NCBI RefSeq assembly: GCF_016026235.1
Contig: NZ_CP065613.1
Reading direction: 5' to 3' (one strand)
DNA length: 64,000 nt
Origin: Escherichia coli
GTDB taxonomy: Bacteria > Pseudomonadota > Gammaproteobacteria > Enterobacterales > Enterobacteriaceae
Shown: positions 30,619 through 34,996 of the stretch, piece after piece
How positions within the stretch are numbered: position 1 is the first letter of the stretch
Layout of the letters: each line of letters begins with the position of its first letter
Notes under the pieces: generated by a model
What the model saw: only the letters and a program-made list of their open reading frames with translations
Databases searched by the model: none
What the model was told of the DNA's origin: nothing
Program-made: the position numbers and the translations under genes

Positions 30619-31404
30619 TTATTCGTCTTCTGAATCAGGTGTAATGATCTTTACAGAACCATTCTGGCAGTGCGTAACATAATCTGCCGGTAACGGACGA
30701 TCGCTAATCAGAACGTCAAATGCAGAGATCGGTGCGAGGCTGGCAGAGGCCACTTCATCGAACAACGCGTGGCGGGCGAGCAAAATTTTCCGTAGTCCAC
30801 GGTTCATCGCTTTACGCTTAGTGGCAAGATCTTCAGGGTTAAACCAGCTGACGCCAAAGTGATTATGCACACCGCTGGCGGAAATAAATATTATTCGCGG
30901 ATTGAGAGAGTCTAATGGCGAAGAGTTACTGGCATCGTAAAAAGCATCACTTCTGGCACGATACGTACCACCACAAAGTATTGCTGTTACATTAGGCTTT
31001 TCATTCAACGCAACAAAGACGCGATGTGAATAACAGATGCCGGTGAAGGTGATTGCATCCGGGATCATGCTTATAACGAGTGGTATCTCCTGGCCATTAT
31101 CAAAGAAGATCAGATCATTTTCATTAACCATTCCGGCAGCCAGAATTGCAATAGGTAAGTCATCACGATGATTTTTTGGAACGTCATGGATTACTGGCAT
31201 GGATGGCGCGGGTTTATTCACCATTACAATATAGCCACCCAGTAGGGTCAGTGGCAGAGGTTCATCTTCCTGATGGAGATCGCGACGAATAGTCATTACA
31301 GAAACTTCCAGCATTCGCGCTGCGTCTTTCAAATGGATTCTGTCGGTTTTCTTAAGCAGTTCCATCAAACGTCGGATACGCTCTTTTTGCTTCGTTTCCA
31401 TCAA
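30619..31404 (-). CDS. deoQ: DeoR-family transcriptional regulator, DeoQ-like (261 aa)
   Basis: N-terminal HTH (LKDAARMLEVSVMTIRRDL) plus sugar-binding domain; divergent from kinase-permease operon. Confidence 0.55.
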   Translation of the reverse strand: MMETKQKERIRRLMELLKKTDRIHLKDAARMLEVSVMTIRRDLHQEDEPLPLTLLGGYIVMVNKPAPSMPVIHDVPKNHRDDLPIAILAAGMVNENDLIFFDNGQEIPLVISMIPDAITFTGICYSHRVFVALNEKPNVTAILCGGTYRARSDAFYDASNSSPLDSLNPRIIFISASGVHNHFGVSWFNPEDLATKRKAMNRGLRKILLARHALFDEVASASLAPISAFDVLISDRPLPADYVTHCQNGSVKIITPDSEDE

Positions 31405-31706
31405 CTCTCTCTCCGTAAGAATGTTATAAAAATAACATTTTGGCGTTAGTAAACATTGTTTTCATTACCATACTATACGACCGCTCCTTTGAAATGAAAA
31501 GGGTATAGGCTGCTGAGTTTTGGGCACTAATCTTGTTAGGTTGCTTATGATTAGATAGTGTTGGCCTGAGTGATGAGACTGGAAGTCTATTAAATAAACA
31601 TCGGGTTGATGTGCTAATCGCGATCTCAGTCACAAATGATGCAAAAGTAACATGCTAATGTTATTTAAATACCATTGTTATGCGAAAGTTTATAAGAGGT
31701 AGTGAA

Positions 31707-32627
31707 ATGGACATTGCAGTTATTGGTTCCAATATGGTGGATCTCATTACTTACACTAATCAGATGCCTAAAGAAGGAGAAACTCTGGAAGCACCTGCCT
31801 TCAAAATCGGATGTGGTGGGAAAGGTGCTAATCAAGCGGTGGCGGCGGCTAAATTGAATTCAAAAGTCCTGATGCTGACTAAAGTAGGTGATGATATTTT
31901 TGCGGATAATACTATTCGTAATCTTGAATCATGGGGAATTAATACCACTTATGTTGAGAAGGTCCCCTGTACCAGCAGTGGTGTTGCACCGATCTTTGTT
32001 AATGCCAACTCGAGCAATAGTATATTAATAATTAAGGGAGCGAATAAATTTCTTTCCCCGGAAGATATCGATCGAGCTGCAGAAGATCTGAAAAAATGCA
32101 AATTGATCGTTTTACAACTGGAAGTTCAACTGGAAACAGTTTACCACGCGATTGAGTTTGGTAAGAAAAATGGTATTGAAGTGTTATTAAATCCGGCTCC
32201 GGCATTGCGTGAGTTAGATATGTCTTATGCCTGCAAATGTGATTTCTTTATCCCGAATGAAACAGAACTGGAAATATTAACCGGTATGTCGGTTGATACT
32301 TATGATCATATTCGTTTGGCCGCACGTTCGTTAGTTGATAAAGGGCTGAACAATATTATTGTTACCATGAGCGAAAAAGGCGCATTATGGATGACCCGCG
32401 ATCAGGAAGTCCATGTTCCTGCATTCAAAGTAAATGCTGTTGATACTAGTGGCGCTGGTGACGCATTTATTGGTTGCTTTTCCCATTATTATGTTCAAAG
32501 CGGTGATGTTGAAGCCGCTTTGAAAAAAGCCGCTCTCTTTGCCGCTTTCAGCGTCACAGGGAAAGGTACGCAATCATCTTATCCGAGTATTGAACAATTT
32601 AATGAATTTTTAACCTTAAACGAATAA
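31707..32627 (+). CDS. deoK: PfkB/ribokinase-family sugar kinase, deoxyribokinase DeoK-like (306 aa from MDIAVIGS)
   Basis: ribokinase motifs (GGKGANQAVAAA, DTSGAGDAFIG); operon with FucP-like permease. Confidence 0.6.
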   Translation: MDIAVIGSNMVDLITYTNQMPKEGETLEAPAFKIGCGGKGANQAVAAAKLNSKVLMLTKVGDDIFADNTIRNLESWGINTTYVEKVPCTSSGVAPIFVNANSSNSILIIKGANKFLSPEDIDRAAEDLKKCKLIVLQLEVQLETVYHAIEFGKKNGIEVLLNPAPALRELDMSYACKCDFFIPNETELEILTGMSVDTYDHIRLAARSLVDKGLNNIIVTMSEKGALWMTRDQEVHVPAFKVNAVDTSGAGDAFIGCFSHYYVQSGDVEAALKKAALFAAFSVTGKGTQSSYPSIEQFNEFLTLNE

Positions 32628-32654
32628 TCATCCTGCACAGTTAAAGGTAGCACT

Positions 32655-33971
32655 ATGAACGATAAAAACATCATTCAGATGCCTGATGGGTATCTGAATA
32701 AGACTCCCTTGTTCCAGTTTATTTTGTTATCGTGTTTATTCCCGCTATGGGGATGCGCAGCTGCATTAAATGACATATTAATCACTCAATTCAAAAGTGT
32801 ATTTTCGCTAAGTAACTTTGCTTCAGCATTGGTGCAGAGCGCATTTTATGGAGGTTATTTTTTAATTGCAATACCAGCATCCCTTGTGATTAAAAAGACC
32901 AGTTATAAGGTGGCAATTTTAATTGGCCTGACGCTGTATATTGGTGGTTGTACACTTTTTTTCCCTGCCTCGCATATGGCAACCTACACTATGTTCCTTG
33001 CAGCTATTTTTGCGATTGCGATTGGCCTGAGTTTCCTTGAAACTGCAGCGAACACATACAGTTCAATGATCGGTCCAAAAGCCTATGCCACATTGCGGCT
33101 CAATATCAGCCAGACCTTTTATCCGATTGGTGCTGCGTCTGGTATTTTATTGGGCAAATATCTGGTTTTCTCCGAGGGGGAAAGCCTTGAGAAGCAGATG
33201 TCCGGAATGAACGCCGAGCAAATTCACAACTTTAAGGTGCTAATGTTAGAGAACACCCTTGAACCGTATAAGTATATGATTATGATTCTGGTTGTGGTCA
33301 TGGTGTTGTTCCTTTTAACCCGCTTCCCAACCTGTAAAGTGGCACAGACAAGTCACTATAAACGCCCGTCAGCAATGGATACGCTGCGCTATCTGGCTAG
33401 AAATCCGCGCTTTCGTCGCGGTATTGTGGCGCAGTTCCTTTATGTGGGTATGCAGGTCGCAGTATGGTCATTTACCATCCGTCTGGCGCTGGAGTTGGGC
33501 GATATCAACGAACGTGATGCTTCAAACTTCATGGTCTATAGCTTTGCCTGCTTCTTTATTGGCAAGTTTATAGCCAACATCCTTATGACGCGTTTTAATC
33601 CGGAAAAAGTATTGATTCTCTATTCCGTTATAGGGGCGCTGTTCCTGGCATATGTTGCACTGGCTCCAAGTTTCAGCGCGGTCTATGTCGCCGTCCTGGT
33701 AAGTGTTTTGTTTGGCCCTTGCTGGGCGACGATCTATGCAGGAACACTGGATACAGTTGATAACGAACATACAGAAATGGCAGGAGCAGTCATTGTTATG
33801 GCTATTGTCGGTGCCGCGGTGGTTCCGGCAATTCAGGGATATATTGCAGATATGTTCCACTCACTACAGCTTTCATTCCTGGTTTCTATGCTCTGCTTTG
33901 TCTATGTCGGAGTCTACTTCTGGCGTGAAAGCAAAGTACGTACCGCACTGGCTGAAGTCACAGCGTCCTGA
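32655..33971 (+). CDS. deoP: MFS sugar permease, FucP-like, DeoP-like (438 aa)
   Basis: 12-TM MFS of the L-fucose permease subfamily. Confidence 0.6.
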   Translation: MNDKNIIQMPDGYLNKTPLFQFILLSCLFPLWGCAAALNDILITQFKSVFSLSNFASALVQSAFYGGYFLIAIPASLVIKKTSYKVAILIGLTLYIGGCTLFFPASHMATYTMFLAAIFAIAIGLSFLETAANTYSSMIGPKAYATLRLNISQTFYPIGAASGILLGKYLVFSEGESLEKQMSGMNAEQIHNFKVLMLENTLEPYKYMIMILVVVMVLFLLTRFPTCKVAQTSHYKRPSAMDTLRYLARNPRFRRGIVAQFLYVGMQVAVWSFTIRLALELGDINERDASNFMVYSFACFFIGKFIANILMTRFNPEKVLILYSVIGALFLAYVALAPSFSAVYVAVLVSVLFGPCWATIYAGTLDTVDNEHTEMAGAVIVMAIVGAAVVPAIQGYIADMFHSLQLSFLVSMLCFVYVGVYFWRESKVRTALAEVTAS

Positions 33972-33982
33972 GGAGAACCGTT

Positions 33983-34996
33983 ATGAGTACGCGTATTAAT
34001 TTGTGGCGGGCGCTTTTTGGCGAGAAACCTCGTATCTTGCTGGAAAATAGTGATTTTACTGTCACGTCTTTTCGCTATGACAGCGGTGTCGAGGGGCTTA
34101 AAATTGCAAACAGTCGTGGACATTTGATTATTCTTCCCTGGATGGGGCAGATGATTTGGGATGCGCAATTTGATGGACACGGCCTCACCATGTGCAATAT
34201 GTTTCGCCAGCCTAAACCGGCGACAGAGGTGATAGAGACCTATGGCTGTTTTGCTTTTCATTCAGGTTTGCTGGCTAATGGCTGCCCATCTGCGGAAGAT
34301 ACTCATCTGCTACACGGTGAAATGGCCTGTGCCGCGATGGATGAAGCATGGCTGGAATTAGACGGAGATATGTTACGCCTTAACGGGCGTTACGAGTATG
34401 TAATGGGTTTCGGTCATCATTATCTGGCTCAACCAACAGTGGTCCTTCACAAATCCTCTACACTGTTCGATATTAAGATGGCCGTAACCAATCTGGCTTC
34501 TGTAGATATGCCACTACAATATATGTGCCACATGAATTATGCATATATACCAAATGCTACATTCAGCCAGAATATCCCGGACGAAATATTAAGATTGCGT
34601 GAATCAGTGCCTTCGCATGTTAATCCCACCGCTCAGTGGCTGGCGTTTAATCAACGGATTATGCAGGGAGAAGCCTCTCTGTCGACGCTGAGTCAACCGG
34701 AATTTTATGATCCAGAAATTGTCTTCTTTGCAGACAAACTGGACGCTTATACAGATCAGCCAGAGTTTCGCATGATCTCTCCCGATGGCACTACGTTTGT
34801 TACTCGTTTCTACAGTGCTGAACTAAATTATGTGACACGCTGGATCCTTTATAACGGAGAGCAACAGGTAGCCGCCTTTGCATTACCTGCAACCTGTCGG
34901 CCTGAGGGGTATCTTGCCGCGCAACGTAATGGCACGCTGATTCAGGTTGCACCGCAGCAAACGCGCACTTTTACAGTCACCACAGGAATTGAATAA
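33983..34996 (+). CDS. deoX: DeoX-like protein of unknown function (337 aa)
   Basis: last gene of kinase-permease operon; no catalytic motif recognised. Confidence 0.45.
   Translation: MSTRINLWRALFGEKPRILLENSDFTVTSFRYDSGVEGLKIANSRGHLIILPWMGQMIWDAQFDGHGLTMCNMFRQPKPATEVIETYGCFAFHSGLLANGCPSAEDTHLLHGEMACAAMDEAWLELDGDMLRLNGRYEYVMGFGHHYLAQPTVVLHKSSTLFDIKMAVTNLASVDMPLQYMCHMNYAYIPNATFSQNIPDEILRLRESVPSHVNPTAQWLAFNQRIMQGEASLSTLSQPEFYDPEIVFFADKLDAYTDQPEFRMISPDGTTFVTRFYSAELNYVTRWILYNGEQQVAAFALPATCRPEGYLAAQRNGTLIQVAPQQTRTFTVTTGIE

What the first reader, a model, noticed from the sequence alone, without database searches (positions are those of the whole stretch)
30619..34996. deoQ-deoKPX-like deoxysugar utilisation cluster 2.6 kb upstream of nhaA
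Seen: a divergent DeoR-family regulator, then a ribokinase-family kinase, a FucP-like MFS permease and a 337-aa protein of unknown function, ended by a clean terminator (35018-35050). Established: this gene set matches the deoxyribose (deoK) operon described in Salmonella and in some pathogenic E. coli, which is absent from K-12. The assignment to deoxyribose rather than another pentose or deoxysugar is from memory and not verified.
Basis: partly seen in the sequence, partly recalled or inferred. Interest (0 to 1): 0.4.

Follow-up and report, generated by a model that had tools for sequence, protein, structure and literature searches.

The report
Known deoxyribose-utilisation operon deoQKPX
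This is the already described four-gene deoxyribose (deoK) operon that about 30% of E. coli strains carry on a genomic island; here it is intact and ordinary, and it lies next to nhaA only because an insertion sequence joined the two.

Summary
Window 30619-34996 holds a divergent DeoR-family gene (deoQ), then a PfkB kinase (deoK, true start 31707, 306 aa), a FucP-like MFS permease (deoP, 438 aa) and a 337-aa protein (deoX), followed by a strong terminator at 35017-45.

The kinase matches the published DeoK of E. coli AL862/55989/CFT073, strains reported to grow on 2-deoxy-D-ribose; the only two differences look like OCR errors. It is about 96% identical to the characterised Salmonella Typhi DeoK. 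Order and orientation match the Salmonella deoQ/deoKPX locus (DeoQ 83%, DeoK 95%, DeoP 96%, DeoX 82%).

The same module is in 1593 of 5426 complete E. coli genomes and is absent from K-12.

One correction: DeoX is not of unknown function. It models as a galactose-mutarotase fold and corresponds to the deoxyribose mutarotase DeoM.

Additions:
- The mobile module is 30377-35130. It carries an ilvN pseudogene stub and a uhpA stub, so it was cut from an ilvN-uhpA chromosomal locus.
- The ilvN stub is closer to E. coli ilvN (90.5%) than to Salmonella ilvN (77%).
- The adjacency to nhaA comes from an ISSso6 copy and occurs in none of the 5426 genomes.

Verdict: already known, low interest.

The parts
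30379..30617 (+). ilvN' pseudogene stub (codons ~18-96, with a frameshift and an internal stop); left edge of the mobile deo module
   Evidence: tblastn with Salmonella IlvN gives 79% identity with a stop codon. It is 90.5% nt identical to K-12 ilvN, including its TAA stop, versus 77-82% to Salmonella, Citrobacter and Raoultella. RefSeq annotates it as a pseudogene.
30619..31401 (-). deoQ, DeoR-family repressor of the operon (260 aa)
   Evidence: HTH_DeoR + DeoRC domains. Best NCBIfam hit is DeoR PRK10681 at 230.6 bits, below its 244 cutoff, so a paralogue and not DeoR itself. 83% identical to Salmonella DeoQ, in the same divergent position.
31421..31438 (.). Operator-like palindrome ATGTT-N8-AACAT (site 1), next to the deoQ start
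   Evidence: Perfect match to the pattern. The ATGTT and ACATT halves are invariant in 8 genera.
31472..31500 (-). Putative deoQ promoter (TTTTCA-17-TATAGT)
   Evidence: Found by the promoter scan. The TACTATAC block containing the -10 is invariant in 8 genera. Function is inferred.
31619..31634 (.). CRP-like site CGCGATCTCAGTCACA
   Evidence: It has 2 mismatches to TGTGA-N6-TCACA, which is not above chance as a pattern. However, TCGCGATC..AGTCACAAATG is invariant from Escherichia to Edwardsiella. Function is inferred.
31636..31675 (.). Two adjacent operator-like sites (31636-31653 and 31658-31675), overlapping the conserved palindrome TAACATGCTAATGTTA and the inferred deoK -10 TAATGT (31656-31661)
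   Evidence: With site 1, these are the only three matches to ATGTT-N8-AACAT (<=1 mismatch) in the 64-kb window. TAACATGnTAATGTTA is invariant in 8 genera. They form direct-repeat family D1.
31707..32627 (+). deoK, deoxyribokinase (306 aa; PfkB/ribokinase family)
   Evidence: Matches the published E. coli AL862/55989/CFT073 DeoK, with 2 OCR-type differences, and is ~96% identical to S. Typhi DeoK. It has Tyr16 and the GAGD motif with Asp252. Closest solved structures are ribokinases.
32655..33971 (+). deoP, FucP-type MFS permease (438 aa), inferred deoxyribose:H+ symporter
   Evidence: TIGR00885 at 323 bits. 96% identical to the Salmonella LT2 protein Q7CPF6.
33983..34996 (+). deoX (= deoM), deoxyribose mutarotase family (337 aa, DUF4432)
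   Evidence: AF2 model with pLDDT 80 and pTM 0.82. Galactose-mutarotase / aldose-1-epimerase fold; best hit 3ty1, TM 0.79, E 2.5e-15. A 60% identical Vibrio homologue is named deoxyribose mutarotase. deoM is named in PMC3899980.
35017..35051 (+). Intrinsic terminator of deoKPX; homologous to the hairpin that follows ilvN in K-12
   Evidence: 12-bp stem, 7 G-C pairs and a T run. It aligns to the K-12 ilvN-uhpA spacer hairpin CGCGCTTATCGTTAAGGTAAGCGCG.
35069..35130 (+). 'uhpA stub (first ~20 codons, frameshifted); right edge of the mobile deo module
   Evidence: tblastn with Salmonella UhpA residues 3-21 gives 79% identity. 86% nt identical to the K-12 uhpA 5' end. Homology to other genera ends at 35130.
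35806..37489 (-). ISSso6 (IS110 family) copy that truncates the island and joins it to nhaA; not part of the operon
   Evidence: The E. coli island match stops at 35805. ISSso6 is annotated in FDAARGOS_943 and in EIEC genomes next to nhaA. This copy has a 163-bp tandem duplication (35804-35966 / 35965-36127) and a 1-nt indel in the transposase.

Best explanation
This is the deoQ/deoKPX 2-deoxy-D-ribose utilisation operon, in its E. coli island-borne allele.

**Proposed working:**
1. DeoP, a FucP-type MFS proton symporter, imports free deoxyribose.
2. DeoX/DeoM, a mutarotase-fold enzyme, equilibrates the sugar's anomers.
3. DeoK, an ATP-dependent PfkB kinase, phosphorylates C5 to give deoxyribose-5-phosphate.
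4. The core-genome aldolase DeoC, encoded outside this window, splits that into glyceraldehyde-3-phosphate and acetaldehyde.

**Regulation.** DeoQ, transcribed divergently, represses the operon. It would bind three ATGTT-N8-AACAT sites in the 305-bp control region. Two of these overlap the deoK -10, and a conserved CRP-like site lies just upstream.

**Shown here:** gene identity, order, intactness, sequence identity to the functionally studied alleles, the DeoX fold, and the conserved sites.

**Inferred:** substrate of DeoP, operator and CRP function, transcription start, and actual expression in this strain.
For: **Identity of the genes**
- DeoK equals the DeoK of E. coli strains reported to grow on deoxyribose and is ~96% identical to S. 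Typhi DeoK.
- In S. Typhimurium, deleting deoK abolishes growth on deoxyribose (PMC13432705).
- The kinase + DeoC aldolase route is the known pathway (PMC6365646).
- The four-gene order is identical to the Salmonella ilvBN-deoQ/deoKPX-uhpA locus, and DeoP is 96% identical to LT2 Q7CPF6.
- Synteny holds across Enterobacteriaceae, Morganellaceae (Providencia, Moellerella) and Pasteurellaceae.
- All four proteins are 100% identical to those of E. coli FORC_031. Only 3 substitutions and 1 indel separate the two over 5.8 kb, and none changes a protein.

**Context in E. coli**
- The operon sits in the island context described in the literature: pheV-type islands next to the vpe operon.

**DeoX**
- It has a mutarotase fold.

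**Control region**
- The three operator-like sites are the only matches in 64 kb and are phylogenetically conserved.
- From my own knowledge: Christensen et al. 2003 (J Bacteriol 185:6042) report a 324-bp deoQ-deoK region with three DeoQ operators and catabolite repression. The Salmonella locus fetched here has exactly 324 bp between the two genes.
Against: - No experiment was possible. Growth, kinase specificity and expression in this particular strain are untested.
- The host genome is IS-ridden and Shigella/EIEC-like, and such genomes often lose catabolic functions.
- deoC lies outside the window and could not be checked.
- NCBIfam's ribokinase and fucP equivalog models both score above their cutoffs, so RefSeq labels the genes rbsK and fucP.
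- DeoK also phosphorylates ribose.
- The original E. coli and Salmonella operon papers were not in the held library. The comparison with AL862 therefore rests on an OCR'd supplementary alignment.
Confidence: 0.93

Rival explanations
1. It is a second ribose (rbsK) plus fucose (fucP) uptake and phosphorylation cluster, as the RefSeq product names say, and has nothing specifically to do with deoxyribose.
For: TIGR02152 (ribokinase) and TIGR00885 (fucP) equivalog models score above their cutoffs, and PGAP names the genes rbsK and fucP. DeoK phosphorylates ribose and can support growth on ribose in Salmonella. A Klebsiella modelling paper notes that deoK/deoP cannot be told apart from rbsK/fucP by generic annotation.
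Against: - The kinase is only ~36% identical to E. coli RbsK according to PMC6452873, but identical to the DeoK of deoxyribose-growing E. coli and ~96% identical to S. Typhi DeoK.
- deoK deletion abolishes growth on deoxyribose in S. Typhimurium, whereas ribose growth has redundant kinases.
- The regulator's best match is DeoR, not RbsR or FucR.
- The cluster has none of the fucose catabolic genes.
Confidence: 0.03
2. The operon is genuine deoQKPX but is silent or useless in this genome, a decaying passenger on a rearranged island. Causes could be the loss of neighbouring island DNA, the nearby IS elements, or a defect elsewhere such as in deoC.
For: The island is truncated at 35805 by ISSso6 and bounded on the left by IS2. 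The closest genome, FDAARGOS_943, has many IS copies and a frameshifted vpe IIC gene. In Shigella flexneri assemblies deoQ occurs only as contig-end fragments.
Against: All four ORFs, the whole 305-bp control region and the terminator are intact. They are essentially identical to those of E. coli FORC_031, with one intergenic substitution at 31485 lying in the spacer of the putative deoQ promoter. The IS boundaries lie more than 800 bp outside the module (30377-35130).
Confidence: 0.1
3. The cluster acts on a different deoxysugar or pentose, for example 5-deoxyribose, L-fucose or 2-deoxyglucose.
For: DeoP's substrate has never been measured directly as far as the held literature shows. The DeoX fold alone does not reveal a substrate.
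Against: The 5-deoxyribose salvage pathway uses a kinase-isomerase-aldolase trio (abstract of PMC6079011), which is not this gene set. The genetic and biochemical evidence for the Salmonella and E. coli orthologues points to 2-deoxy-D-ribose.
Confidence: 0.02

Closest known systems
E. coli deoK operon of PAI II(AL862) / pheV-type islands (Bernier-Febreau et al. 2004; strains AL862, 55989, CFT073)
   Same: The DeoK sequence is the same, with 2 OCR-type differences in 306 aa. The module is the same as in 1593 complete E. coli genomes at 98-99.9% nt identity. The left-hand island neighbours are also the same: BCCT transporter, DUF2254, TetR/AcuR and IS2.
   Different: The vpe operon that normally follows the module is missing here. 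The island is cut at 35805 by ISSso6 and fused to the nhaA region, a junction found in none of the 5426 genomes.
Salmonella enterica deoQ/deoKPX regulon (Tourneux et al. 2000; Christensen et al. 2003)
   Same: Same four genes, order, orientation and protein lengths (261/306/438/337 versus 260/306/438/337 aa). Both have a divergent control region with conserved operator-like and CRP-like blocks, and both are flanked by ilvN and uhpA sequences.
   Different: Nucleotide identity is only ~76-81% and synonymous sites are saturated. DeoQ and DeoX are only 82-83% identical. The control region is 305 bp rather than 324 bp. In Salmonella the operon is a chromosomal fixture between intact ilvBN and uhpABCT, whereas here those flanks are stubs on a mobile island.
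E. coli ribokinase RbsK / rbs operon
   Same: Same PfkB fold family and catalytic GAGD motif. Ribokinase structures are the closest PDB relatives by sequence. The substrates overlap.
   Different: Identity is about 36%. The partners differ: an MFS permease and a mutarotase-fold protein here, versus the RbsACB ABC transporter and RbsD pyranase there. The regulator family also differs: DeoR-type versus LacI-type RbsR (established knowledge).
Galactose mutarotase (GalM) / aldose 1-epimerase superfamily
   Same: The DeoX model adopts this beta-sandwich fold: 3ty1 TM 0.79; B. subtilis GalM and L. lactis GalM at E 1e-8 to 1e-10.
   Different: There is no detectable sequence match to any PDB chain and no hit to the Aldose_epim Pfam family, only DUF4432. 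Catalytic residues were not mapped here.

Membership tests
deoQ/deoKPX deoxyribose utilisation operon | A kinase orthologous to the biochemically characterised deoxyribokinase DeoK | tested here: met
   Matches the published E. coli AL862/55989/CFT073 DeoK (2 OCR-type differences) and is ~96% identical to S. Typhi DeoK. 95-96% identical to Salmonella diarizonae and salamae DeoK.
deoQ/deoKPX deoxyribose utilisation operon | Gene order deoK-deoP-deoX in one transcription unit, with deoQ divergent | tested here: met
   Intergenic gaps are 27 and 11 bp and a single terminator follows deoX. The layout is identical in Salmonella and about 70 other loci. Co-transcription itself is inferred.
deoQ/deoKPX deoxyribose utilisation operon | DeoP: a 438-aa FucP-type MFS permease orthologous to the Salmonella LT2 protein | tested here: met
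   96% identical to the sequence whose UniRef100 representative is Q7CPF6_SALTY. TIGR00885 at 323 bits.
deoQ/deoKPX deoxyribose utilisation operon | DeoX/DeoM: a 337-aa mutarotase | tested here: met
   82% identical to Salmonella DeoX, with a mutarotase fold. Enzymatic activity was not testable.
deoQ/deoKPX deoxyribose utilisation operon | DeoQ: a DeoR-family repressor with three operators in the divergent control region, plus catabolite control | tested here: inconclusive
   The DeoR-family domains are present. Three conserved ATGTT-N8-AACAT sites and a conserved CRP-like block were found. The published operator coordinates could not be consulted, and binding was not tested.
deoQ/deoKPX deoxyribose utilisation operon | Confers growth on 2-deoxy-D-ribose, together with DeoC aldolase | not testable with these tools
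   This needs a growth assay, and deoC lies outside the window. The literature reports the phenotype for strains with the identical DeoK and for Salmonella.
Ribokinase RbsK (rbs operon) | Orthology to E. coli RbsK and linkage to rbsDACB-rbsR | tested here: not met
   About 36% identity to RbsK is reported, and there are no rbs transport genes nearby. The TIGR02152 hit reflects the family-level model.

The most novel reading that the evidence does not exclude
The island-borne E. coli/Shigella deoQKPX module may not have been captured from Salmonella, as the literature states. It may instead have been excised from the ilvN-uhpA locus of an Escherichia-lineage chromosome. On this reading, deoQKPX between ilvN and uhpA is the ancestral enterobacterial state. 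Modern E. coli lost it at the native site and retains it only as a mobile copy.

Support:
- The ilvN stub is 90.5% identical to E. coli ilvN but 77% to Salmonella ilvN.
- Synonymous sites against Salmonella and Citrobacter are saturated.
- No sampled lineage is closer than ~84% in DeoX.
Probability: 0.45. Interest if true: 0.2.

Novelty: already known. Interest (0 to 1): 0.1.

Why it matters
The deoK operon is a documented fitness and colonisation factor of pathogenic E. coli, so recognising it correctly matters for annotation. RefSeq still labels its genes rbsK, fucP and 'aldose 1-epimerase family protein'. That labelling hides a phenotype (growth on deoxyribose from degraded DNA) and misleads metabolic models. 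Nothing about the locus in this window is new biology. The only additions are an evolutionary footnote, that the flanking stubs point to an Escherichia-like rather than Salmonella source, and the genome-specific ISSso6 junction.

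Tried and rejected
- **Original papers not held.** I tried to read Bernier-Febreau 2004, Martinez-Jehanne 2009 and 2012, Christensen 2003, Tourneux 2000 and Assairi 2004. Statements about 324 bp, three operators and the DeoM mutarotase assay therefore rest partly on my own knowledge and on secondary citations.
- **DeoX against PDB by sequence.** No hit, even at E <= 1. The fold search was needed instead.
- **Rfam scan of 29300-37700.** No RNA family reached its gathering score.
- **E. coli genomes with the operon at the native ilvN-uhpA site.** All contexts inspected were island-borne with a pseudogenised ilvN.
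- **A 'missing link' donor among DeoX homologues.**
  - The 84% cluster (L089) is just another enterobacterial lineage, 79% nt identical to the module.
  - The 89% 'cluster' (L090) is the E. coli allele with a 108-bp deletion.
- **CRP consensus as a pattern.** It is not enriched. Only its cross-genus conservation supports the site.
- **The 69-aa ORF at 31424-31633 (-)** inside the control region was considered and dismissed as a mechanical ORF.
- **The ATG at 31680 as the deoK start** was rejected because it is not conserved and has no Shine-Dalgarno sequence.

Full report
**Observation**

- a 261-codon ORF on the minus strand (30619-31404);
- three tightly spaced plus-strand ORFs (31680-32627, 32655-33971, 33983-34996).

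Domain scans assign them as follows:

| ORF | Assignment |
|---|---|
| 30619-31404 (-) | DeoR family (HTH_DeoR + DeoRC). Best NCBIfam hit is DeoR itself at 230.6 bits, just under its 244-bit cutoff |
| 31680-32627 (+) | PfkB/ribokinase |
| 32655-33971 (+) | FucP-type MFS |
| 33983-34996 (+) | DUF4432 |

A 12-bp G+C-rich hairpin followed by a T run lies at 35017-35045. nhaA starts at 37641, 2,644 bp after the deoX stop.

Two starts need refining. deoQ starts at the ATG at 31401 (260 aa). deoK starts at the ATG at 31707 (306 aa), which has a Shine-Dalgarno sequence conserved across genera. The upstream ATG at 31680 does not. The G+C content of deoK and the start of deoP is 0.39-0.42, against about 0.5 in the core flanks.

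**Identity**

The window's kinase is 96% identical to a Salmonella salamae protein that UniRef calls Deoxyribokinase.

More decisively, the supplement of PMC6452873 prints two sequences:
- the S. Typhi DeoK.

The window protein differs from the E. coli sequence at 2 of 306 positions, M56/N and T303/I. The first 'difference' also appears in the OCR'd Typhi row, although real Salmonella sequences have M there. Both are therefore best read as OCR errors. Against S. Typhi there are about 12-14 differences, or roughly 96% identity. Tyr16, the residue that paper links to deoxyribose use, and the GAGD motif with Asp252 are present.

A scan of one genome per species returned 80 loci. In about 70 of them the four proteins occur in the same order and orientation. 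The Salmonella diarizonae locus reads ilvB-ilvN | deoQ(-) | deoK-deoP-deoX | uhpA. Identities to the window are 83, 95, 96 and 82%. Its DeoP is the exact sequence whose UniRef100 representative is the LT2 protein Q7CPF6.

The literature held in the library supports the functional assignment:
- Deleting deoK abolishes growth of S. Typhimurium on deoxyribose, and DeoK also phosphorylates ribose (PMC13432705).
- DeoK plus the aldolase DeoC is the classical deoxyribose pathway (PMC6365646).
- The E. coli deoK operon lies on pheV-type pathogenicity islands next to the vpe operon and promotes gut colonisation (PMC7545054, PMC5382810, PMC6455142).

**Distribution**

The module is present at 80% coverage or more in 1593 of 5426 complete E. 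coli genomes. It is always annotated generically, as rbsK, fucP, aldose 1-epimerase family protein and DeoR family regulator.

K-12 MG1655 lacks it. There ilvN and uhpA are separated by 75 bp, and only the ilvN stub of the query matches.

The window's four proteins are 100% identical to those of E. coli FORC_031. Over 5.8 kb the two differ by three substitutions and one indel, none of which changes a protein.

**DeoX is not 'unknown'**

No PDB chain matches DeoX by sequence. An AlphaFold model built on 22 orthologues (pLDDT 80, pTM 0.82) hits the aldose-1-epimerase / galactose-mutarotase fold. Matches include 3ty1 (TM 0.79, E 2.5e-15), B. subtilis GalM and L. lactis GalM.

A 60%-identical Vibrio homologue is named 'deoxyribose mutarotase' by NCBI, and PMC3899980 uses deoM for deoxyribose mutarotase. 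From my own knowledge, Assairi et al. (Protein Sci 2004) showed that Salmonella DeoX/DeoM is a deoxyribose-specific mutarotase. That paper could not be opened.

**Control region (31402-31706, 305 bp)**

An alignment with seven other genera shows sharp phylogenetic footprints:
- ATGTT-N8-AACATT next to deoQ;
- TACTATAC, which is the -10 TATAGT of a minus-strand promoter found by the scan;
- TCGCGATC..AGTCACAAATG;
- TAACATGnTAATGTTA.

The pattern ATGTT-N8-AACAT, with at most one mismatch, occurs three times in the 64-kb window, and all three fall in this 305-bp stretch: 31421, 31636 and 31658 (also family D1). The pattern was derived from site 1, so only sites 2 and 3 count as independent.

The CRP-like block CGCGATCTCAGTCACA (31619-31634) is not significant as a bare pattern, but it is invariant from Escherichia to Edwardsiella. 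If CRP sits at -41.5, the start would be near 31668 and the -10 would be TAATGT (31656-31661), inside the operator palindrome. This is inference.

It agrees with my recollection of Christensen et al. 2003: a 324-bp region, three DeoQ operators, and catabolite repression of deoKPX only. The Salmonella locus here has exactly 324 bp between deoQ and deoK.

**What the module is and where it came from**

Homology to other genera runs from 30377 to 35130.

- **Left end.** This is an ilvN pseudogene stub (codons ~18-96, frameshift and internal stop).
- **Right end.** This comprises the ilvN-uhpA spacer with its hairpin plus the first ~20 codons of uhpA.
- **Relative to K-12.** The deo genes sit exactly after the ilvN TAA stop, and that TAA also serves as the deoX stop. 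The 'clean terminator' is therefore the counterpart of the hairpin that follows ilvN in K-12.

The ilvN stub is 90.5% identical to K-12 ilvN (90.5-91.8% across E. coli). It is only 77-82.5% identical to Salmonella, Citrobacter, Raoultella and Leclercia. K-12 itself is 79-86% identical to those genera. The short right flank does not discriminate (86% versus 84%).

Synonymous sites between the window genes and their Salmonella, Citrobacter and Raoultella orthologues are saturated (pS 0.61-0.78). dN is much lower for deoK and deoP (0.02-0.04) than for deoQ and deoX (0.10-0.15).

Among 5.8 billion proteins, DeoX relatives show a gap between the E. coli allele (97% or more) and everything else (84% or less). 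The two apparent intermediates proved uninformative.

The data therefore fit a source chromosome closer to Escherichia than to Salmonella. This qualifies the statement, repeated in PMC5382810, that the operon came from S. enterica. I rate this as plausible but unproven. Later gene conversion of the stub by the resident ilvN is an alternative.

**Why it is next to nhaA**

The match to E. coli islands stops at 35805. From 35806 to about 37489 lies an ISSso6 (IS110-family) copy, and then nhaA. None of the 5426 genomes covers 80% or more of window 26000-39000.

A few genomes have ISSso6 between mokC and nhaA, namely FDAARGOS_943 and EIEC CFSAN029787. FDAARGOS_943 is 100.0% identical to the window over 39000-60000. 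Yet it keeps the deo module next to the vpe operon, about 120 kb from nhaA and on the opposite strand.

The adjacency in the window is thus best explained by an ISSso6-mediated rearrangement in an IS-rich Shigella/EIEC-like genome. It says nothing about deo function. The ISSso6 copy carries a 163-bp tandem duplication at one end and a 1-nt indel that splits its transposase.

**Verdict**

This is the well-known deoQKPX deoxyribose operon, apparently intact.

Novelty: already known. Interest is low.

Remaining uncertainty concerns only whether the operon is expressed and useful in this strain. The window lacks deoC and no phenotype is available. The evolutionary origin of the island copy is also open.

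Noticed in passing
window 30379-30617 and 35069-35130: The deo module carries stubs of ilvN and uhpA, so it was cut from an ilvN-uhpA chromosomal locus. The ilvN stub is 90.5% identical to E. coli ilvN but only 77% to Salmonella ilvN. That sits awkwardly with the published view of transfer from Salmonella.
   Followed up: partly
window 35806-37489: An ISSso6 (IS110-family) copy joins the truncated island to nhaA. It has a 163-bp tandem duplication of its end (35804-35966 / 35965-36127) and a 1-nt indel that splits the transposase ORF (36232-37041 and 36912-37406). The island-nhaA junction is absent from 5426 complete E. coli genomes.
   Followed up: partly
window 31707-33971 versus 30619-31401 and 33983-34996: DeoK and DeoP are 92-97% identical in protein across genera whose synonymous sites are saturated (dN 0.02-0.04). 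DeoQ and DeoX in the same operon are only 74-84% identical (dN 0.10-0.19). That is unusually strong constraint for an accessory kinase and permease.
   Followed up: partly
window 7541-14568: A fecR-fecABCDE-like ferric citrate uptake cluster sits on the same island side, as in E. coli FORC_031 where fecABCDE lies ~5 kb upstream of the deo module.
   Followed up: no
window 18172-22048: A chromosomal cluster matches, in order and gene lengths, the polysaccharide deacetylase-capU-virK-lpxM cluster annotated in island-bearing E. coli (RIVM_C039205). It is followed by BCCT transporter, DUF2254 and TetR/AcuR genes (23530-27775) and by IS2 (28036-29309).
   Followed up: no
window 35417-35671: A small 84-aa transposase-fragment ORF (WP_001327567.1 in other genomes) follows the module in every island context inspected. 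In other genomes the vpe PTS operon comes next, but it is missing here.
   Followed up: partly
window 63650-63665: A perfect CRP consensus TGTGATTGGTATCACA lies near the right end of the window, just beyond the cai genes. It was the only zero-mismatch hit in the window.
   Followed up: no
L090 (ENA metagenome contig) versus window 34528-34635: A metagenomic copy of the E. coli-type deoX carries a 108-bp in-frame deletion, giving a 300-aa product. In Shigella flexneri assemblies deoQ appears only as contig-end fragments. Both suggest decay of the operon in some lineages.
   Followed up: no
RefSeq annotation of the module (e.g. L001 9220-13597): PGAP assigns the gene symbols rbsK and fucP to deoK and deoP, and gives deoX/deoM a generic name. 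This is a systematic mis-annotation affecting about 1600 complete E. coli genomes.
   Followed up: yes
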